Source of the DNA: Saccostrea echinata
Taxonomy: Eukaryota
Assembly (NCBI RefSeq): GCF_033153115.1
Contig: NW_026889778.1
Location: forward strand, 13,640,001-13,704,000
Length of the DNA stretch: 64,000 nucleotides
Reading direction: 5' to 3'
Every line of letters begins with the position of its first letter. Position 1 is the first letter of the stretch. Shown piece by piece: positions 49,639 through 64,000 of this stretch. Below the pieces are notes generated by a model that had not been told where the DNA came from, ran no database searches, and saw only the letters and a list, made by a program, of their open reading frames with translations. Made by a program: the position numbers and the translations under genes.

Positions 49639-49888
49639 GGCCATCTTGAAAATTTGTTTGCTTGCCCTCTCCCGACTCAGGATAAATATATTGGGTCGGT
49701 AGGTAGGGGAAATTTTTTTTATTCAAAAACACTTGCAAATATGATAATAAAATAGTTATTTATGAGATGAAAAAACTTAGAAATGAATAAAAAAAATGAT
49801 TTCTGGAGGTTGAAAAAAAGTTTTGAGTTGTGGCATTTTTAGTCCGTCGGTCGGAAGAGGGCAAACAAATATTTTTTTAAAGATGGCT
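49639..49888. mobile_element. PIF/Harbinger-like MITE (TTA TSD)
   Basis: TTA|GGCCATCTTGAAAATTTGTTTG..CCCTCT.CCGAC ... GTCGGAAGAGGGCAAACAAAT..AAGATGGCT|TTA. Confidence 0.65.
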
Positions 49889-50061
49889 TTATTTTGTAAG
49901 TTTTTTTGTTCATTCATTTTTCATATTATACTATGTGTACAGGTAAATGATTGGTTTTAATGATATTTGTTTAATAAGCATCTACAATTTAATTGTGCTG
50001 GAAATCACTTACTAATTAGTTTAATTTACTTATGCTACTCATTTGGGAGGGGGGGGGGGGG

Positions 50062-50495
50062 TCGGATGCTGGATCTGACCTACATTTTCCAGACGAGTGA
50101 CCAGGTTAAAGGTTTTTGAGCAGGTCCATTCCCAAGTAACTATAAGCCCTATCAGGAATAAACTTGCATGGATAATGCATCTAGGGATGGACACTACCAA
50201 ACTTGCTTCGGATGCTGGAACTGACCTACATTTTCCAGATGAGTGACCAGGTTAACGATTTTGAGCAGGTCCATTCTCAAGTTACTATAAGCCCTACCTG
50301 GACCAGACTTGCATGGATGATGAATCTAGGGATGGACACTATCAGACTTGCTTCGGATTCTGGATCTGAACTACATTTTTCAGATGAGTGACAAGATTTA
50401 AGTTTTTTGAGCAAGTCCATTCCCAAGTAACTATAAGCCCTACCTGGACCAAACTTGCATGGATGTTGCATCTAGGGATGGACACTACCATACAT
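50062..50495. repeat. Three tandem ~145-bp units
   Basis: tcggatgctgga.ctgacctacattttccaga..ctagggatggacacta recurs at ~50062, 50207 and 50352. Confidence 0.9.
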
Positions 50496-51028
50496 GCTTT
50501 TGCAATGCATAAGCATTACATTTAGCGTTACTGAAAGCCTGGGATTAAAATTATATGGTGTCTAAGCATTGTAATCTTAAAATTTTAACACTGTAATGCA
50601 CAATAATTATCTTATGCAGAGAGAAATTCTTTAAAGATTGTATTTTCCAAGCAGGGCAGAGATTGTTTCTCCAAAAATAATGAAGTATAATGTCACCATA
50701 AAAACTTTGCAATAATATATCATAATGCTTACGAGCTTTATAAATAAGTAAACAATCATGATAAACATGTCACGATTCTAAAAGATTAATTGGAACTTAA
50801 TGAAACTTAATGATATTATATGATACTTGTGTATAATGATAAGTGTAAACGCATTACGAAATTGATATACAAATGCATACGAAAAATCAGAATTAATCTA
50901 CTTTTATTTATTAATTTGTTGATTATAATATATGATTTCTTTATCATATATCGGTTTTTCTATTTACATCCTTATTGGAAAATATTGCTTTAGCTATGTA
51001 TACATGAGAAATCTCTGAAAACAATTAA

Positions 51029-51346
51029 GGTCAGACGATACGTTCCTCAAATATGTGTTTTTGAAATATCTTTGTATTGTGTGGAAAATATTCAAAATTT
51101 TAATTACCTTCTGATTTCTAAACTGGTTTCTAATTGTCTTTAAAAAATTGAAACACTTAAAAATGTGTTATTGGCTAATTAAATTTTTTCAAAGGGATTT
51201 TATAGGAAACAACGTCCTCCTGTATCTTGCACAAATGCCTGGTAAGGTACCTCAATATTTTGCGAGTAAACATATTAAAGTAGCAATACTTCAAAGACGA
51301 AATCTTAGAAAAAATTATATATTATTGAGGAACGTATCGTCTGTCC
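51029..51346. mobile_element. TTAA-TSD Kolobok-like MITE
   Basis: TTAA|GGTCAGACGATACGTTCCTCAA ... TTGAGGAACGTATCGTCTGTCC|TTAA. Confidence 0.85.
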
Positions 51347-51519
51347 TTAACAAGCAGCATTTACACACTGTCATCTTATTCTTCTCTTTCTAATCTTTAC
51401 TCGAGAATCCACATTTCCTTCCTCGGATTGCAGTGTCTAGTATATATATATAATAAAGGGTAAGAGACTCGATTTGCATTGAATTTGTTTTTAATACTTT
51501 ATCACCCAGACATTATCTC

Positions 51520-51559
<40 letters not shown>

Positions 51560-51570
51560 GAGAATACATT

Positions 51571-52640
51571 TAAGAAATAAATAACAAGTTTAAAAACTTC
51601 TCTGGGAAATGAAGTGGGTCGGTCACGTGATCAAATCCTTTGAAGGCCGAAGGCCTTCTCAGAAGATTTGATCACGTATCGACCCACTTCATTTCCCAAA
51701 GAAATTTTTAAGCTTGTTATTTATTACTTATATTTGAGACGGACAATCGAATATAAATATTGCAGTAACTGTTCGTCGTAGATTTTGACAAATTACGCAA
51801 GGTGTAAATCGGCTTGAAAAGCGGTTACGCTTCAAATTCATCTGGCAAAGGATTTTGTTTTGAAGGGAATATTCTGTGAAAGGCTACTTGTGATCAATTA
51901 TAGTGAGCATACTGGTGTCTGGGAACTATTGAATTCATGAGAACCCATATTCGATGTTAAAAAAACACAAGAAACACGTCCGATGTTTAAATGTTGGAGT
52001 AATTTCGGTCGGAAAGGAATGGATGGAAACGGACCAGTTAACTTGAAATCAAGTATAAAATTGGATCAGAAATATAATATCTACGATTTCAGTTAGGCAT
52101 ATTTATTATGATGTTGACACGGAAATACTGGCGACAGCTTGCATTGTTAAGACAACGATCTCGATGATGAAGGTGTGTCTACCGAACTTCCGAAGTGCAG
52201 TGTTTGTCAGCTGTTTGTTGCGTGATTGCATTACATTGATATTTTCCAACAGATTTTCAAATTTATTGTGAGTAAAGTTTAATGAAAAAAAATTATAGCA
52301 TTCAGAGGTCTACAAGAAAAATAAGGGTAAACGTTGAGACTATGCAGCTCAGACATGAAACTTATAACACGTAGTTTTCTATTCTTTATGTAAAATCGAT
52401 CAAGAACTGTGTTAAATACTCGTTTACATTGTTAATAAAATGATTATTATTTTACTTGCGTATTTTGTACATTTTATACATGAAAAACATGCAATATTGC
52501 TAAGTAGAGTATGTCTTTTTATGTGGATATTACTGCGCTGTGTGATTACGTAATGACCTATGACCTTTGAAAAACTTCATACAGGTATGAAGATATTTGC
52601 TCTCTGTATGTTTATATAAGAAAGAGATACCACAAATGTA
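51571..52640 (+). mobile_element. Long-hairpin element, family D, inserted in repeat unit 1
   Basis: Hairpin at 51571-51730 capped by GGCCGAAGGCC. The host motif agaatacatttgattttgac is split between 51570 and ~52644. Confidence 0.7.
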
Positions 52641-53027
52641 TATATTTGATTTTGACTTTTTGCATAAATCAAGAACAAACATTCTTATTTAAAATAAAGT
52701 GGAAGTTCCAATAGTTAATTTCTTGTTTTAGACTTTCTAGAAATAATGCCATTTCCACATCATATAATATCACGTTCACATTCAAATTCAATATTTCTAT
52801 TCAAAGAGAGCAGAAAATAGACATATAGACAAACGGACAAGAGGATTCCCAAGGTATGTAGTGGTACTGCAAATCTTGATTTCTTTCAAGTGAATTTTTA
52901 AGCCTTATAATTGCTGCAATGAGATTATGTTACGAACTCGACACATAAATTTTCATATCAGTTTCAAAACAACCTTGCACCAATTTTGGTGAATTGTTTA
53001 GCAGTGTACGTATATAATGTTCCTTAA

Positions 53028-53512
53028 GGTCAAGATCTAGTAATTGAGTTTAGACTGTTTTTTTTTATGCGATCCATTATGACGTCATACTCAATTTAAA
53101 CTTACTTTTTCCCGTATTTTACGGCTGTAATAGAATTTGTAGAAAATGCAGCATTTTCATGGAATTCAATTTGAAATCATGTCAAAAGTAACCCCGATAC
53201 CTACATTCAATTTAATATCATTTTAAAGTAAAGGTCAAGAAGATAAGAAAAATCATTTTCTGAGAGACTGTGGGCAATACTGATACATTTCCTTTTTCCA
53301 AGATGAAAAAAAAACTCCGAAATTTATACCAGACTTTCTTCATTTTATATTGAAAATGACTGCTTAAAAAATGTTTTTTCGTTGAGTTTACCTAAAAATT
53401 ATTCCCCGATACATCTTATTTTAGTAAGCTGTATTTGTAAAGGAGTAATAAAAGAACTCGTTTCTAAAATTTGAGAAATCTGTAGGCACCTTTCATTTAC
53501 TAGATCTTGACC
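53028..53512. mobile_element. TTAA-TSD Kolobok-like MITE, with the empty site visible in sister repeat units
   Basis: TTAA|GGTCAAGATCTAGTAA ... TTACTAGATCTTGACC|TTAA; other units read cccTTAAgc. Confidence 0.88.
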
Positions 53513-54626
53513 TTAAACAGGTTTGTGAGTTATTCAAAGATTTAATGATACTCGATCACGCACAGTATAAGAAGTATCAAGAAATTTAAAAAAATGTGTT
53601 TAGTCAGTTTCTGTTAAATATCTCATAAAGATTACTCGGTCTTTAAATAAATGAATAGATATGAACAGTTGTAGAATGTTATTGAAACTTGCGTTTTATC
53701 AATTTCCAGTCGATGATAAGAGTTCGGTAAACAAACTGAGTTATTTAGTAATAAGCTAGTGGATCAGAACAGCAGAAGGCATGCTACGGCAGTTTTTTTA
53801 ATCACCATATGACGATCCAGTCGCTACATTAAGACTGTTTTTGTGACACAGAAAACATGTCATTATGAACTGACATTTTTTTTTAAAAAATAATTATCTG
53901 ATCATTGTCAAAATTATGAGGTTTTCAAGGAGTAATCTTATAACAAATATACATGTAAATGTCCGCGTCTTTACAGACACTATAATTCATTGTTTGTTTT
54001 GTCATTGTTATTTAGTTCACTACTTCATCGTTTCCGCCTGCCCTTTTAATAATTAAATATATACTTTTTTACAGATATTTTCAATTTAAAACATTGGGTA
54101 AGGAATGATTTTTAAAATTTTTCNNNNNNNNNNNNNNNNNNNNNNNNNNNNNNNNNNNNNNNNNNNNNNNNNNNNNNNNNNNNNNNNNNNNNNNNNNNNN
54201 NNNNNNNNNNNNNNNNNNNNNNNNNNNNNNNNNNNNNNNNNNNNNNNNNNNNNNNNNNNNNNNNNNNNNNNNNNNNNNNNNNNNNNNNNNNNNNNNNNNN
54301 NNNNNNTTTTGATATTAATCCTCTGCTTACAAATGCATATAGAACACTTAATTTTTTTAGAATTTACATAATTTTATTCTTCCCTTTTTTAATCACGACT
54401 CGAGAATCTACACTTCCTTCTTTAGACTGCATTGTGTAGCGAATAAATAATATAAAGGGCAGGTATCCATTTGCATTGAATTTATTTTTCAATATTGTAT
54501 TACCCAGACATTATATCGCCCAAAGAAGCTGAGAATCCATTTGATTTTGACTCTTTTGAGTAAATCAAGAACAATAAAGTTTATTTTCAATAAATTGGAA
54601 GTCCCAATAGTTTATTTCCTTATGAT

Positions 54627-55273
54627 GAAACATATGGAGATAACGAACAGTATTCAAGCTCGAAAGTCCATTAAACAATACAAAATAGGAGCAGAGCAAA
54701 CACGGACCTTCAAACATCAGAGGTGGGATCAGGTGCCATGGAGGAGTTAGCATTCCCTGCCGACCGGTCACACCCGCCGTGTGCTCCTTGTTATGATCGG
54801 AAAATAACGGAAAAATCAGTCTACAATTCAGTGTGTAAATAATGGCCCAGCAATAAGTACATGTATGAAAAACGTCAGTTAGCATTTGACTCAATTTGCT
54901 GACAAGGTCATTGTATCGACCATAGAACTTACGAAATGATGACACGAGACAGCTGATATTCTTGTTTCATCAACTTATTTGTCAATAATTTACCTCGTTT
55001 TAGAAATTGTACATATGAAGAGCATGCTCTTGAGTATCAAATCAACTGAGAGATATATACCCCGTATGCAGGTGATGAAGGTATATTGCATAAGTAAGGG
55101 AAGTTGACGATTGAAAAGTTAAAGTCATCACGTTTATCATAAAGCTGGGTTGTTAGATTACCATTAACGTCTTTTTCAAGTAAAATATCCAAATATGAAA
55201 CAAATGTGTCAGACTCTGTGGTATCTTTTATCTCAAGTTCACCAGGATATATCGTATCGACATAAGAATGAAA
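54627..55273 (-). mobile_element. 5'-truncated Penelope-like RT retroelement fragment
   Basis: The - strand reads LYDKRDDFNFSIVNFPYLCNIPSSPAYGVYISQLI*YSRACSS..FLKRGKLLTNKL, then SFRKFYGRYNDLV. Absent from sister repeat units. Confidence 0.75.
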
Positions 55274-56359
55274 CTTATCTGAAACTACCTAGAAGATACG
55301 CTATTTTCATATCATATAATAGCACATTGACATTAAAATCCCAATTCTGTTTTCAAAGAGAGCAGAAAATGGACATATAGACAAATTGACAACAGGATTC
55401 TCAAGGAATGTAGAGGTTCTGCAAATCTTGATTTCTTTCAACTGATTTTTACGCCTTATAATTGCTGCAGTATGTTAATGTTACGACCTCTACACATAAG
55501 TTTTCATACCAGTATCAAAACCATCGTGCACCAATATTGGTAAATTTGATTTGCAGTACAGAGTACGTATAAAACTTCCCTTAAGCTGGTGTGTAAGTTA
55601 TTCAAAGATTTCATGAAACTATACCTCGATTATGCACAGTAATAGTAAAAGGTTTTTAAAAGAAATTGAATTTGGTCAGTTCTGTTAAATAAGCTATTAA
55701 TAAAGATTACGTATTTCAAACAGTAAATAATTACCATAAATAAGTGTGATATAAAAAGTATTAGAATTTCTTATTAAACCTTGCAATTTATCTATTTCAA
55801 GTCGATAATTAGGGTTCGGTATTAATTAAATAATAATAAAAATAGAGAATACTCAATTTTCAGCATTTAAGCAATATTTTTTCTTCCCTTTTTAAATCAC
55901 GACTCAACAATCCACACTTCCTTCTTTAGACTGCATTATGTAGCGAATAAATAATATAAAGGGCAGGTATCCATTTGCATGGAATGTATTTTTTAATTCT
56001 TTTTCACTAAGACATTGTCTCACACAAGGAAACTAAGAAAACAATACATTTGATTTTGATCTTTTGCTAAAAATCAGGAAGACTAACTCTAATTTACAAT
56101 AAATTGGAAGTCCCAATAGTTTATTTTCTTGTCTGAAACTAAATAGACGACACGCTATTTTTGTATCACATAATAGCACGTTTGCATTCAAATCCTAATG
56201 GTCTATTCAAAGAGAGCAGGAAATAGACATATAGACAGATTGACAACAGGAATCCCAAGATATGAAGAGGTCAGCAAATCTTGATTTCTTTCAACTGAAT
56301 TTTTACGCCTTATAATTGCTGCAGCGTGGTTAAGTTACGAACTCTACACATATGTTTAA

Positions 56360-59358
56360 GAAAGCACAAAACACCCACCACCAAAAATTTCCTGTCGTTT
56401 AATTTTCGCTATTTTTGTATATTTTATACATGACTATATATACAATACGTATGCACATTTTGGACAAAAGCGTTCGAGTCGTATTTGGACAGGAAGTTCC
56501 AAAAGTTGGTTGTTCACACGGAGAAGAAATTTCAATCGGCTAGCTATAAAATCCTTGATTTTCAAAAAAGTCCAGCTAGTCTGGCTGTCAAATTTCATTG
56601 ACTCATTCATTTAACCATTAGCCACACAAATACAGTATTTTTGTAGAGGTATACATCGGTGACACATATTATGAAGAACTTAAACTGAAAAAATATGGTT
56701 CATTTAAGCCTTGAAAATGCATGTTTTTCAATTTAAATAATTTTTAATGAAAAAAACCTATCATTTAATTTTGGAAATAATGGGTTTTTTTTTCATGTAA
56801 CTGGTTACAATAGTAATCTTGGTACTTTTTTGTAATTTTTTTAAACTAGCCGTTTTGAAATTATAACGACCCCCCTCCTTTTTTTTCCTTATGTCACGTT
56901 TCTCAAGCGTCTTTCAGACTGGAACGAAAACATTGTTAGATCTACAAATACACATGAAAACTTCCAAGCTAGAAAATATCTTTTGCTTTAAACAAAATTA
57001 TTTACATTATATATCACAGTTCTTTAAACTTTTCAGTTCATTGAAATGCATATTTATTGACATTTTTTTATCCCTCCTTTTTTTTTTGGACGCAGTCATT
57101 AGAGCTTGATGAAATAAAGGTTGCCTTTCAGATATACATTTAATCTTTTAAATCCCTGAAGTACCAATTAGTTCATTCATTCATGCAGATTAAAATTCTG
57201 ACAACTAGAATAAGAATTAAACTATCAGCCACTAGAACAAAAGTAAAACTTATCTATATTTATAAATTAATAAATTTTGCAAATAAACTCCGAAACGGCT
57301 GTACCAGAGTTCTTACTTACTCCTCTATAAATACACTAGATACAAGATGATGTCCGTAAGCTATATTCAGATTTCGCTCGCATAGTAGGTATCGTACATT
57401 AAATTAAAAGTCTACTTTAAATTTCTATAAACAGTCATGAAATACCAAAAACGTGAGTACGGTGGTGGTTCCGGTTGGCGGATCTAAGTTACTGGCAATT
57501 TTTAATGAAACTGACAACAAGCAATCGTTTATTTATTTCATAAAATGTCATCACTGAAGTATTCAATCAAAACTTGATTTAAATAACATAAAAGATATAA
57601 GTTGTGATAACCGATTATAAAGGGAAATGTGCAAATTATTTTCGTCATTCACCGATCTTAATATTGTCAGAAGCTTCTAGAACATCATATAGCATCGAGC
57701 CCGATGTTAAAATCGATTATATAACTGCATGAGCATAGTCATTGAAATAATGGCAAATCATTGATAACACTATAAGTTGTGAATATATTTATGTATCGAA
57801 AGACTATTAGTATGTTTTCCTAATAAATTTATCGGTAAAATTTCTATATATTCCTCAATGACAGCATCGTGGCAACGAACCAAAGTACAATTTGTACTTC
57901 GTAAAAACTTGCTTACATGAAAAGAGAAAATTAATGAATAAGGTATTGTTCAAATACAGTTAAAGCTGTTAAAATTTTGTGCCTTTATCAACACATTTCA
58001 GTTTTTTTCTGAATACAAATACTCAGTCTATTCATATGGCGTTAAACAGCTGTTAAAAGCTAATGTAAAAAAAAAGGACAAAGAAAATTCAATTTATCAG
58101 AAAATATATGTATATTCGCTGCTTTTATCATTGACGGAAATGAAATAAGAGCACCTGAAGTACAATATCTATAACATAGTATAACAGGTTTCACAATAAA
58201 CGTCAATAAATGAAATTGTTATTTTTCAAGTTTTTACAAAAGGGGGGGGGGGTTAGAGACGTACATCTTCTTCTGCTCTAAGATTAAATGCAGCTGGATT
58301 TTGAACAAAGTATTTCTTCCTACTATTAAGCTAGCCTGTAGGCTGTCGGTAGAAACTACAATATATATTATTGAAATTTTTCTGTCGGTAGTGGTATAAA
58401 TTCAATTCCCCGCGCTTGCGCGGGATTTCATCTAGTTCTCTTAGAATTTTATGTCCACTTGTCCAATATGTAGTCAATACACATGGTTGACATGCATTTA
58501 ATTTTATACCTGCATTAGCATTCAACTTACATTGAATTTTAACCTTATTTTTTCATTAAAAGTGAATGCACAATGTTGAAAATTTAACTTTCTATGATGT
58601 AAACAGACTGGAAGATGAAATACATTGTTTCTTATTTATTTCAAACCAGAGAGGGGTCTTAAAGGAACCCCCTCCCACTTGTATGGATCCTTCTGTTGCT
58701 TCTATATTTAAAATGGAAATTTCGCATTCGTCTACATTAACTTCAATTTATCAAACTGTAAATTCTCCATCTATGTTTAAATTATTCATTGTAAATGTGT
58801 CTTCATAACTGTATGGCAAACAGGAGGAAATAACTCAACTAGGGGAGGGGAAAGATCTCCAACATTTTAAGAGTTGTTCCTCTGTGATTAGTGAACTTTT
58901 TTGGAAACGGGTTGTAAAACATTATTTTTCTTAAAAGGAGAATAAAACAGTATTGATATGGCTAATTCTTAATTTTAAGATAGACCCGTGATCTGGTAAT
59001 TGAGAATGTTACATCGCAAACTGTAACAAAAGACAGCAGTCAATGTATCATAAAAAAGATAAAGCTTATATTGATCACGGATACGAGTTCAAAGTTGGAG
59101 AACTTTAAAACATAATCTTTCCTTTCTTCCCTTTTTATGGAGGGAGGGGCGGGTCTAAATCAAAAGCACAAATAATCAAGGATACGATTTGGTATTTCTA
59201 AAGAAACAACATCAAGCCCCTAATCCCATTTTCTTTAAATTACGTCGGGATCGATTCGCTCGTCATTTTGACGCTTTATTATAAACGTCAAATTTGACGT
59301 CAAGTTAAACGTTTAATTGAAATCGCAAGAGTTGTCTTCCCCAGTGTGTTGTACGTCT
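56360..59358. mobile_element. ~3-kb insertion at TTAA (degenerate Kolobok-like ends) containing a Helitron
   Basis: The host unit acacata.gttt..ataccagtatc is split at TTAA (56356-56359 and 59359-59362); weak TIR gaaagcacaaaacac / gtgttgtacgtct. Confidence 0.6.
57253..58435 (+). mobile_element. Non-autonomous Helitron
   Basis: A|TCTATATTTATAAATT ... CCCCGCGCTTGCGCGGG-ATTTCAT-CTAG|T. Confidence 0.9.
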
Positions 59359-59496
59359 TTAAATACCAGTATCGAAACCATCGTGCACCAATATCGCTTA
59401 ATTTGTTTAGCAGTGTACGTATAAAACGTCCCATAAGCAGGTGTGTAAATTATTCAGAGATTTTTTGAAACGATACCTCGATCACGCACAGTAATA

Positions 59497-59694
59497 CTGT
59501 AGATCACCAAATTTTCGCGACACCTTATTTTCAAGTCATATGTATTTGGCGAAACAAAATTTTCACGAATACTGGGTATTGTTGTATATAATCTATACTA
59601 ACAAAAATTTACGTGAAAATGAAATTCCCACGGGCAGTCCGTCTCGCGTAATAAAGCGAAAATAATGTACTCGCGAATAAAAAGTGATTTACAG
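59497..59694. mobile_element. TA-TSD MITE (Tc1/mariner-like)
   Basis: TA|CTGTAGATCAC..TTTTCGCGA ... TCGCGAATAAAAAGTGATTTACAG|TA; absent from other units. Confidence 0.75.
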
Positions 59695-61392
59695 TAGTAA
59701 AAGGTTTTAAGAAAGAAAATGTATATGACCAATTTTGTTTAATAAGCCATAAAATTTATGTTTATAAATCAAAACATAATGATCATAAATAAATGTAATG
59801 TGAACAGTATTAGAATTTCTTACTAAACATTGAAATTTATCTATTTCCAGTCGATAATAAGCGTTCGGTATTTATTTAATCATAATAAAAATAGAAAATA
59901 CTCAACATTCAGCATTTACATAATTTTATGCTTCTCTTTTTAATCTTGACTCGAGAATCCACACTTCTTTCTTAAGACTGCATTGTGTAGCGAATAAATA
60001 ATATAAAGGGCAGGTATCCATTTTTATTGAATGTTTTTTTTTTCATTCTTAATCACCAAGACATTGTCTGACAAAAGGAAACTAAGAATACATTTGATTT
60101 TGACTCTTTTTATATGAAACAAGACTACTAACGCTTATTTGTAATAAATTGGAAGTCCCAATAGTTTATTTCCTAACCTGAAACTAAATAGACGATATGC
60201 TATTTTTATATCATATATTAGCAGGTTCACATTCAAATCCAATATGTCTATTGAAAGAAAACAGAAAATAGACATACAGACGAATTGACAACAGGATTCT
60301 CAAGGAATGTAGAGGTTCTGCAAATCTTGATTTCTTTCAACTGATTTTTACGCCTTATAATTGCTGCAGTATGTTAATGTTACGAACTCTACACATAAGT
60401 TTTCATATCAGTATCAAACAATCGTTCACCAATATTGGTAAATTTGATTAGCAGTGTACGTATAAAACTTCCCTTAAGCTGGTGTGTAAGTTATTCAAAG
60501 ATTTCATGAAACTATACTTCGATCACGCAAAGTAAAAGTAAAAGTTTAATGAAGGAAAATGTATTCGTTCAGTTCTGTTTAATAAGCCATAAAAATTACG
60601 TTTTTCAATCAATGGATAATGATCATAAATAAGTCTTATATGAACTGTATTAGACTTTCTTATTAAACATTGCAATTTATCTATTTCCAGTCGATAATTA
60701 GGGTTTGGTATCACTTTAATAATAATAAAAATAAAGGATACTCAATTTTCAGCATTTACATAATTTCATTCTTCTCCTTTAAGACTTGACTTGATCATAT
60801 TTCCTTCTTAAGCGAATAAATAATATAAAGGGCAGGAAACAGAGAATGCATTACATTTTGAAGTATTTGCATAAATCAAGAACAATAACGCTTATTTTCA
60901 ATAAATTGGAAGTCCCAATAGTTTATTTCCTTATATTAAACTACCTAAAAGATACGAGCACGTTCACAATCAAATCCAATTGTCTATTGAAAGAGGGCAG
61001 AAAATAGACATATAGACAAATTACCAAGAGGGTTCTCAAGGTATGTAGAGGTACTACAAATCTTGATTTTTATTCAAATAATTTTTAAAGCCTCATAATT
61101 GCTGCAGTGAGGTAACGTTACGAACTCTATACATACGTTTTCATAATCTTGCACCAATATTGGTAAATTTGTTTAGCAGTGTACGTATAAAACGTCCCTT
61201 AAGCAGATGTGTTAAGTATTTCGAAGATGTAATGAAACTATACCTCGATCACACACAGTTATACAAAAAGTTTCAAGAAAGAAAATGTATTTGGCTAGTT
61301 CTGTTAAATACGCCATAAATATTACAGAGTATTTCAATCAATAAATAATGATCATAAATAACGAGTTATAAACAGTTGTAGAATGTCTTAAT

Positions 61393-61827
61393 AGAGAAAT
61401 ACCGACATCTTACGAACGAACGTAACTCGCCCTAACTTCCCGTATCTCGGTAGTTTTCCCGGGACCAGTTATTGAACCTGGTTAAAATTAATAAATCGGA
61501 AACATTAAGTATATGTGTATAATAGAACGGGCAGTATTTTAATCACTTTTTAAATGATACTTTCTCCTGTCTAATTTTCTGTAATCGCTTACAATGTATT
61601 TAAAAGCGGACAAATAGAAGAAAATATACCAAAATACCTATGACGGGTTAGGAAACACATTTGACATGCGTCAGTGGTTATACGTATATATACTAGTGTG
61701 CGCTGTGTTCATTTGGGGAAAGTTACGTGAAATCTAAACTCATACCCTGTATGAATCCATGCAAAGGCAACAAGTTACTAGGTGATGCGCTTATATAGTG
61801 TCTTATTTAAAAGTGTACATATGTGTT

Positions 61828-61874
<47 letters not shown>

Positions 61875-62536
61875 ACAATGGACAATAATTGTTGTAATGA
61901 ATTATATAATGTAAAATTGTCTAATGTTTCAGAAATCAACTATTAAAAATTAGAAAATAGTCTGCACTTCTCCGGAAAAAGAAATATTTTTAAAGTGGTC
62001 ACGCGTAGATGTTTGTGTACTTGGGGAGGGAGGGGGGGGGGTCGAAGCTCAATTAATTTTCATTTTCATTATATTTAAGTAAAAACATGGAATACTACGA
62101 TCCATATACTACAATCCTTAAAAAAGTGGAATGGGGTAATGCATGCATATGCAATAATTTTTTTTTTCCATATCGTATCTAGTAAAAGAAAAAGTACCTT
62201 CATAAAGAAAGAAGGGTAGGTTTTTTCTTTATGTGAAATATCACTTCAAAGAAATAAACGAGCATTCATATGATAGACAGTATCTTCTTGGATGATGTAT
62301 TATATTGCAGTCTTATCTTTTATTCTCATTTTCATTTTCATTTTACATGTGTATTTTCCTTTTCTGAACCCCTTTGCTTGTTTAAATGTCCATTGAAATG
62401 TATTGTAGCGTCATGGTAGCGACTACGACAGGAATCTTGCGGGGATTTTATCTTTTGAAATCGCAAAAAACATTGAAGAATTCAATAATGCAAATGTGAA
62501 TACAATGAACGATCCTTAAGATGTCGGTATTTCTCT
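61393..62536. mobile_element. TIR element with apparent 2-bp AT TSD (possibly ISL2EU/PHIS-type)
   Basis: AT|AGAGAAATACCGACATCTTA ... TAAGATGTCGGTATTTCTCT|AT; interrupts repeat unit 5. Confidence 0.75.
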
Positions 62537-63323
62537 ATTGTAACCTGTGTTTTATCAATTTCCATTCGATGATAAGGGTTTGGTAAACAGAGGTAGTCAG
62601 TAGTCAGAGGTAGTCAGTAATAGACTTGTGGATCCAGAACAGCAGAAGGCAATGTGACGATCCAGTCGATACACAAATGCTGTTTTTGTGACACAGAAAA
62701 CATGTCATTATGAACTGACATTTTTTTTTGGAAAAAATAATTTTCTGATCATGTCAAAATAATGAAATTTGCAAAAAGCAGTCTTTAAACAATGTCTGCG
62801 TCTATACAGACCCCTAAAATTCATTGTCTGTTTTGTCAGTGTTATTTCATTACATGTATTTCATAGTGTCTACCAGCCCATTTAATAACATTTTTACTTA
62901 AAAATGTTTTTCAAGGTTTACCAATTTAAAAATATGAGGGGAAAAATTGATTTTTTTAAACATAAGTTTATGTGTATATTAAATAGTTGGCTTGATATAT
63001 TAAAGGATTTTGGCGCTGAGAAATCATGCGCTAATTTATAAATACCGTTAATAAATCATGAATAAATACCGTATATGGTGTGGACGTGTGTTGCGCTAAT
63101 TCATTACTAGGCTAACCACTGAATCCCACTAATTGCTCTAAATTTTGAATACGGCAATTTATGTTTAAGTACAGTATATATAGCTGCGCCTCGGGAAGTA
63201 GTTGTTGTCTTGGGGTACAATAAATTAACTTGCTATTGTCCTCATAAAACTATATAGGTGTATAATGTTTCATGGAATATATACTTTTAAATATTTCATT
63301 TTCAGCTCAGAACATTCAAAATA

Positions 63324-64000
63324 ATGGATCTTCAGAGAAGTGCCCAAAAAGATATACGGTGTGAACACTGTGAGACTGCTGTGATACAGAGGCACTGTGA
63401 ATTATGTCATGTTAACTTATGCATAGCTTGTATAGGAAAACATGTTTCTGATGACTACGACAAACATAAAGTCGTTCCATTCAAAGAACAGAAATCAACC
63501 TTGATCTTTCCAAAGTGTATAACGCATCGAACCAAAAAGTGTTATTTACAGTGCTGGAAATGCAACATTCCCGTTTGTTCATTATGTCCGGCTACCAAAA
63601 AACACAAAAAGCACACTTTCTTTCCCCTTTCAGAAGTTTATAATCAGAAGAAAAAATTCATTTCAAACGAAAAGAAAGAATTACAAGATCTATCCCCAAC
63701 ATATAAAGCAATAGTGAATGACGTAGAAAAGCAGATTTCCAATTTAGATGGTGATTATGGGAAGCTTGCAGATTTAGTGACAAATCATGGAAATGAATGG
63801 CACAGAGAAATTGACAGAGTTACAAAGAAAATGAAAAATGAATTTTATGAGATGAAAAGCAAACACCGGTGCCTTCTAAAAAATATTTGGATAAAATCAA
63901 ACAGATACAGTCTCGTATTGATCGAAAGCTGTGTACTCTGAAGAAAACTGAAGAATCGAATGATGTGTCCAAGACCTTGCAATATACACCTGAAATCAAA
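63324..64000 (+). CDS. TRIM-like B-box protein paralog 2, 3'-partial, with a 1-bp frameshift (possible pseudogene or sequencing error)
   Basis: Aligns closely with 46572 onward (e.g. LCIACIGKHVSDDYDKHKVVPFK). Acceptor ttttcag ends at 63305. Adding one A to the A6 run at 63878-63883 restores KKYLDKIKQIQSRIDRKL...TLQYTPEIK, which is open to the window end. Confidence 0.85.

What the first reader, a model, noticed from the sequence alone, without database searches (positions are those of the whole stretch)
51353..63305. Five-fold tandem array of a TRIM-like promoter and non-coding first exon; only two copies keep the splice donor
Seen in sequence: the ~845-bp unit carries a block homologous to the upstream exon of TRIM-like gene 1 (41573-41772). 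Both read GGAAGT ... GATACGC.ATT ... AATAGCAC ... TTCAAA(A)GAG.GCAGAAAAT ... AAG|GTATGT. GGAAGT-to-donor spacing is 153-154 bp in units 1 and 4, versus 151 bp in gene 1 after removing its 41-bp MITE plus TSD. The donor is intact GT in unit 1 (52854) and unit 5 (61041) but lost in units 2, 3 and 4 (GA at 55406, AT at 56260, GA at 60305). The two intact units are exactly those followed by the unique intron-like sequence (53730-54123, matching 62580-62960). Inference: this is an amplified promoter/TSS cassette, not an anonymous satellite. Internal copies may act as multiplied enhancers or splice-dead start sites while the proximal copy drives gene 2.
Basis: partly seen in the sequence, partly recalled or inferred. 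Interest (0 to 1): 0.8.

Follow-up and report, generated by a model that had tools for sequence, protein, structure and literature searches.

The report
Old fivefold-copied oyster gene start
The front end of one oyster immune-type gene (its likely promoter, first non-coding exon and the start of its intron) was copied five times in a row long ago; the three middle copies have lost their splice signal and look like decaying leftovers, though one short sequence is unusually well kept.

Summary
The array is real: five copies of an ~840-bp unit at 51346-62580, 75-86% identical, broken by six independent insertions, and found nowhere else in the genome. The unit is the 5' end of a B-box/NHL gene, not a satellite. 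A profile built from the five units alone scores gene 1's upstream block and a third, orphan copy of it above 1708 of 1708 control windows. 31 of 34 paralogs have a splice acceptor just before the ATG, against 32% at random positions. Donor states are as reported, but the contrast is weaker than claimed. Units 2 and 4 share one dead donor inside a 103-nt identical (conversion-like) tract, and the pattern has about 5% probability under neutral drift. The GGAAGT spacing argument is out of register. Gene 2 carries a 1-bp frameshift. No spliced read was seen (inconclusive), so promoter versus internal exon is inferred. Best reading: an old local promoter/first-exon duplication, with unit 5 working and units 2-4 relics. 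A 29-bp kappaB-like palindrome invariant in units 2-5 (p=0.003) keeps a multiplied-enhancer role open.

The parts
41392..41772 (+). Gene 1 upstream block (likely promoter and non-coding exon), donor AAG|GTATGT at 41767; ~41-bp palindromic dispersed element at about 41604-41644
46572..48335 (+). Gene 1 single coding exon, 587 aa, B-box + NHL, no RING found; acceptor candidates at 46549 and 46558
51346..53729 (+). Unit 1; insertions at about 51526-52624 and 53033-53510; core 52693-52721; intact donor 52854
53730..54123 (+). Unique intron block after unit 1, homologous to 62580-62960; ends at the N stretch
54308..55808 (+). Unit 2; core 54589-54617; high-copy repeat inserted at about 54625-55273 between core and exon body; dead donor GA at 55406
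55384..55486 (+). 103-nt tract identical between unit 2 and unit 4 (about 60283-60385), spanning the dead donor; coordinates approximate
   Evidence: 0 of 2000 permutations reach it
55809..59858 (+). Unit 3; core 56098-56126; dead donor AT at 56260; insertions at about 56358-59352 and 59497-59695
59859..60698 (+). Unit 4, the only uninterrupted copy (840 bp); core 60143-60171; dead donor GA at 60305
60699..62580 (+). Unit 5; core 60900-60928; no ATG between core and donor; intact donor 61041, the last strong donor before gene 2; inverted-repeat element at about 61394-62535
62580..63310 (+). Rest of gene 2's 5'UTR intron: unique block 62580-62960, dispersed repeat about 62969-63179, acceptor candidates at 63305 and 63310
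63324..64000 (+). Gene 2 coding exon (continues to window position 64981), 63% identical to gene 1; 1-bp deletion at about 63875-63880; no other stop in 551 codons

Best explanation
The unit is the 5' end of gene 2: promoter, short non-coding first exon, splice donor and the first ~400 bp of the 5'UTR intron. A first, longer duplication gave unit 1 (which carries more of the intron and may be the stump of a whole-gene copy). Later tandem duplications of the shorter unit gave units 2-4, with some conversion between copies. Unit 5 kept driving gene 2, splicing from 61040 to the acceptor at 63305 or 63310. Units 2-4 were redundant, collected transposon insertions and lost their donors, so any transcript starting in them would read through many upstream ATGs (12 from the unit 4 core to the unit 5 donor) and make no protein. 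Gene 2 stayed intact long after the array formed and was frameshifted recently. Shown: array, local uniqueness, homology to gene 1's block, donor states, frameshift. Inferred: TSS position, splicing, order of events, lack of function of the inner copies.
For: Both halves of the unit match only this locus (6 matches each, all in the window). A units-only profile scores gene 1's block 11.6 bits and an orphan copy 40 kb downstream 18.8 bits, above all 1708 control windows. 31 of 34 paralogs have YAG 5-20 nt before the ATG vs 32% background, so an upstream non-coding exon is a family trait. Only 5 sites in 51300-63310 match the donor consensus at 8 of 9 or better; two are the unit 1 and unit 5 donors, and 61041 is the last before gene 2; 41767 is likewise the last of 2 before gene 1. 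The top DNA paralog of gene 2 has 13 identical nt around a donor 1.7 kb upstream of its ATG. Each insertion is private to one unit. Gene 2 has 0 internal stops in 551 codons where 7.5 are expected after unit 5's branch length of neutral drift (0 of 1000 simulations stop-free), and dN/dS is 0.43-0.57.
Against: No spliced junction or start site was seen; the joint table showed 15 rows and hid 111. Homology to the other 33 paralog upstream regions is undetectable, and the one paralog match is only 0.0 bits, reached by 22 of 1708 controls, with a pattern chosen after seeing it. The 29-bp core is invariant in units 2-5 (p=0.003) and 26 of 29 in all five (p=0.07), which pure decay does not predict. 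All three inner donors lost with both outer ones kept has about 5% probability under neutrality. The junction between units 1 and 2 lies in N.
Confidence: 0.58

Rival explanations
1. Same origin, but the inner copies are kept as multiplied enhancers: each contributes the 29-bp palindromic kappaB-like core to the unit 5 promoter, and donor loss removed competing start exons.
For: Core identical in units 2-5 against 69% invariant columns overall (p=0.003); its GGAA..TCC centre aligns with gene 1 and the orphan copy; all inner donors dead, both outer intact (about 5% under neutrality); none of the 18 non-satellite direct repeats found in 9 of 34 paralog upstream regions carries a strong donor, so this layout is not routine in the family.
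Against: Conversion tracts exist in this array and can homogenise a block without selection; p=0.07 with all five units; a 650-bp repeat landed 7 bp from unit 2's core; gene 2 is now frameshifted; the kappaB reading is a recalled consensus, not a binding test.
Confidence: 0.2
2. The unit holds an internal 5'UTR exon (~105 nt, acceptor to donor) rather than the promoter; the true start lies upstream of unit 1, and the duplicated exons were silenced by donor loss.
For: A TAG preceded by a pyrimidine-rich stretch lies about 105 nt before the donor in units 1-4 (alignment); the TATA-like word has no start-site evidence; donor loss after exon duplication is a simple route to skipping.
Against: That AG is TAA in unit 5, the copy nearest the gene, and its position is not fixed in gene 1; conservation with gene 1 extends about 190 nt upstream of the donor, beyond what an acceptor needs; gene 1 ends only 3 kb upstream of unit 1.
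Confidence: 0.13
3. An anonymous local satellite or decayed transposon whose resemblance to gene 1's upstream block and to a donor is chance.
For: Raw pairwise scores to gene 1 are marginal (shuffles reached them in 0-107 of 200); a 28-33-bp stretch around the core resembles two other genomic repeats (L055, L059); satellites are common upstream of these genes.
Against: No dispersed copies; no match to the high-copy repeat profile or to Rfam; two separate homologous blocks beat 1708 of 1708 controls; the unit runs on into gene 2's unique intron.
Confidence: 0.05

Closest known systems
Variable-first-exon clusters (UGT1, GCNT2, protocadherin; PMC1885805, passages read)
   Same: Tandem homologous first exons upstream of a shared downstream exon, a conserved motif at a fixed place before each, and some copies decayed to pseudo-exons or relics.
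   Different: Here the exons are non-coding, so copies cannot change the protein; 3 of 5 lack a donor; the shared coding exon is frameshifted; no copy is shown to be used.
rDNA spacer promoters (PMC12326227, passages read)
   Same: Promoter duplications upstream of the main promoter, proposed to act like enhancers or to occlude the main promoter by read-through.
   Different: Those are RNA polymerase I promoters kept across many species; this is a single-locus polymerase II case with 14-25% divergence, insertions and no shown activity.
Expanded oyster B-box/NHL ('TRIM2/3/71-like') gene family
   Same: Genes 1 and 2 are typical members: ~550-aa single coding exon, B-box + NHL, acceptor just before the ATG; at least 150 members in this genome, 2831 relatives at E<=1e-50 among 7999 scored, the listed ones nearly all from oysters. 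TRIM genes are prominent among oyster disease-resistance transcripts (PMC6971885, passages).
   Different: No comparable donor-bearing 5'-end repeat was found in 34 paralog upstream regions. No RING domain, so these are not canonical TRIM proteins.

Membership tests
Variable-first-exon cluster | Tandem array of homologous first exons upstream of a common exon | tested here: met
   Five homologous units upstream of gene 2's acceptor; first-exon status itself is inferred
Variable-first-exon cluster | Each exon has its own active promoter | not testable with these tools
   Only contigs were available; they cannot show start sites
Variable-first-exon cluster | Each exon has a donor and is spliced to the common exon | tested here: not met
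   Donor dead in 3 of 5; splicing of units 1 and 5 not observed (inconclusive)
Variable-first-exon cluster | Variable exons encode variable protein parts | tested here: not met
   No ATG between core and donor in unit 5, one in unit 1; the ATG lies in the downstream exon
Satellite DNA / dispersed transposon | Many dispersed or highly homogeneous copies | tested here: not met
   6 matches per half-unit, all in the window (the search skips very common words); 75-86% identity
TRIM (RING, B-box, coiled coil) | RING domain | tested here: not met
   Pfam finds only zf-B_box and NHL in gene 1 and zf-B_box in gene 2's first part
TRIM (RING, B-box, coiled coil) | B-box | tested here: met
   PF00643 above cutoff in both genes
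TRIM (RING, B-box, coiled coil) | Coiled coil | not tested
   No coiled-coil prediction was run
NF-kappaB (kappaB) element | Match to the consensus and binding by Rel proteins | tested here: inconclusive
   The core's reverse strand fits a recalled 9-bp kappaB-type consensus; binding not testable here; the near-identical 15-mer also occurs inside a high-copy repeat

The most novel reading that the evidence does not exclude
A natural 'splice-dead promoter array': an oyster immune gene multiplied its own promoter five times, the inner copies lost their donors so they cannot compete as start exons, and selection or conversion kept one palindromic kappaB-like site in every copy, so that the array tunes inducibility by copy number or occludes the last promoter by read-through, like a polymerase II version of rDNA spacer promoters.
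Probability: 0.18. Interest if true: 0.6.

Novelty: new member of a known kind. Interest (0 to 1): 0.3.

Why it matters
As a relic, it is a clean record of how oyster B-box/NHL genes turn over their 5' ends by local duplication, insertion and conversion; an orphan copy of gene 1's upstream block 40 kb away shows the same process. It also marks the unannotated-looking first exon of this subfamily. If the inner copies work as enhancers, it would be a compact natural test of whether duplicated promoters become enhancers by losing their splice donor. The frameshift in gene 2 limits present-day biological weight.

Tried and rejected
RNA evidence: no listed holder is on record as RNA. Four contig sets were laid on 44001-64000; none of the 15 joints shown (111 hidden) joins 61040 or 52853 to gene 2, the longest listed gene 2 contigs begin at 63431 and 63532, past the acceptor, and gene 1's donor lay outside the stretch. 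Low or zero cover over units 3-5 is no evidence either way. A paralog (L046) seemed to share the core 15-mer with a donor 160 nt downstream; rejected, since the 15-mer occurs 346 times (control 10) and 16 of 20 sampled copies are one dispersed repeat whose profile does not match the unit. L063 matched the unit profile near the core but has no family gene within the 30 kb fetched. A first conservation test gave p=0.001 for the core but counted gapped columns as variable; the corrected value for five units is 0.07. The composite exon-donor pattern occurs 47 times genome-wide (control 21) and was chosen after seeing the match, so it is only weak support. Rfam: 0 hits. The bacterial promoter scan is irrelevant to this organism. 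Earlier findings: none. Six paper searches found no description of this array; supplements were not examined.
Full report
Setting. The window is G000:C29:13640001-13704000 of a 923-Mb genome. Gene 1 (46572-48335) encodes 587 aa with B-box and NHL domains and no RING. Its listed relatives are almost all oyster proteins, and at least 150 family members lie in this genome (150 scored of 971 candidates). Gene 2 starts at 63324, runs to window position 64981 and is 63% identical to gene 1.

The array. Self-comparison and a profile search give five copies of an ~840-bp unit between 51346 and 62580, 75-86% identical. Only unit 4 is uninterrupted. Six insertions, each private to one unit and several with inverted ends, make up more than half of the span. 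Two different 300-bp parts of the unit each gave 6 matches in the genome, all inside the window, so it is not a dispersed element; that search skips very common words. Rfam gave no hit. Unit 1 is the most divergent copy, and units 2-4 group together with 100% bootstrap support.

Is it the gene's 5' end? Raw pairwise scores against gene 1's upstream region are marginal and the full-unit profile gives E=0.047. A search with gene 1's block found a third copy about 40 kb downstream, which the unit profile hits at E=0.00068. In an anchored test a profile of the five units alone scored gene 1's block 11.6 bits and the orphan 18.8 bits; the best of 1708 control windows scored 5.5. Independently, 31 of 34 fetched paralogs have YAG 5-20 nt before the ATG against 32% of random positions, so the family has an intron just before the start codon and needs an upstream non-coding exon. 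The unit 5 donor is the last of five strong donor-like sites before gene 2, and 41767 is the last of two before gene 1 (consensus recalled). The top DNA paralog of gene 2 shares 13 nt around a donor, but its profile score is reached by 22 of 1708 controls, and the other paralogs show no detectable homology. The start site is not located. An internal-exon reading remains possible because units 1-4 have an acceptor-like TAG about 105 nt before the donor.

The alignments put the unit's GGAAGTCCC against gene 1's GGAAAATCC, not against the GGAAGT 9 bp further on, so the spacing agreement is not evidence. Each gene has two candidate acceptors, and the one 13 nt before the ATG matches the closest paralogs.

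The donor pattern. GT in units 1 and 5, GA in 2 and 4, AT in 3. Units 2 and 4 are identical over 103 nt across the dead donor although only 86% identical overall (0 of 2000 permutations), which points to conversion or a shared late origin: two mutations, not three. On the fitted tree, neutral change keeps both outer donors 62% of the time, kills all three inner ones 7.6% of the time, and gives the full pattern 4.7% of the time. That is suggestive but post hoc. Units 1 and 5 share the longer intron block because unit 1 came from a longer duplication. Its homology stops at the N stretch. About 130 bp of unique intron would remain before an acceptor, so unit 1 may be the stump of a whole-gene copy. 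The orphan copy of gene 1's block, which has lost its donor and has no family gene in the following 115 kb, is a local precedent.

The core. A 29-bp near-palindrome is identical in units 2-5 (p=0.003) and has 26 of 29 invariant columns in all five (p=0.07). Its centre resembles a kappaB site (recalled consensus). An apparent match in a paralog proved to be a high-copy repeat. Selection and conversion cannot be told apart with one genome.

Gene 2. It has a 1-bp deletion at about 63875-63880 relative to two paralogs. Contigs from runs X2 and X3, two studies, cross the site without a gap; one X1 contig has a single gap at an unlisted place (RNA status is a guess). P0121, a 315-aa protein labelled Saccostrea echinata by its source, is 100% identical to the part after the shift. 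There are no other stops in 551 codons, where 7.5 are expected after unit 5's branch length of drift, and dN/dS to paralogs is 0.43-0.57. So the array stood in front of a working gene for most of its history.

Comparison. The layout resembles variable-first-exon clusters (PMC1885805, passages) but fails two defining features: the exons are non-coding and most lack donors. It resembles rDNA spacer promoters only by analogy (PMC12326227, passages). A B-box orthogroup appears in a table of a paper on bivalve gene-family expansions (PMC8382680, passage), and TRIM genes are prominent among oyster disease-resistance transcripts (PMC6971885, passages). Six searches found no description of this array; other papers were seen as listings only and supplements were not examined. 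Nine of 34 paralog upstream regions hold non-satellite direct repeats, none with a strong donor.

Verdict. A real, old, local amplification of a gene's 5' end. I put about 0.85 on the donor being a true 5'UTR donor, about 0.75 on the unit holding the promoter, and 0.58 on the full relic model. It is a new member of a known kind, interest 0.3.

Noticed in passing
G000:C29:13743731-13745200 (window-extended 103731-105200): Orphan copy (about 68%) of gene 1's upstream block and intron start, lacking the small palindromic insertion, with the donor deleted and no B-box/NHL coding sequence in the next 115 kb.
   Followed up: partly
window 63875-63880: 1-bp deletion frameshifts gene 2; the only lesion in 551 codons; crossed without a gap by contigs of two studies.
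   Followed up: partly
window 48222-48478: Gene 1's reading frame runs about 35 codons past the family's usual end into an inverted-repeat sequence, giving 587 aa instead of about 553.
   Followed up: no
window 41604-41644: ~41-bp palindromic mini-element with many dispersed copies, inserted in gene 1's likely first exon.
   Followed up: partly
window 54625-55273 and 28290-28930; L053-L072: High-copy dispersed repeat of at least 1.2 kb; it carries a 15-mer nearly identical to the unit's core and a strong donor about 157 nt downstream, the same layout as the unit, but without alignable flanks.
   Followed up: yes
L055 and L059, about 594-625: A 28-33-bp stretch of two related repeat copies resembles the unit's core; no flanking similarity.
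   Followed up: partly
window 54449-54470, 55953-55975, 60000-60022, about 51457-51470: A TATA-like word followed directly by a second donor-like site in units 1-4; the donor-like site is missing in unit 5.
   Followed up: no
window 54124-54306: The N stretch lies exactly at the unit 1 / unit 2 junction, so the breakpoint of the first duplication is not visible.
   Followed up: no
window 34185-35162 (-): Intact single-exon Sulfotransferase_2 open frame.
   Followed up: no
window 36721-37052 and 41017-41365; 50062-50499: An 89% direct duplicate upstream of gene 1, and a three-copy ~146-bp tandem repeat.
   Followed up: no
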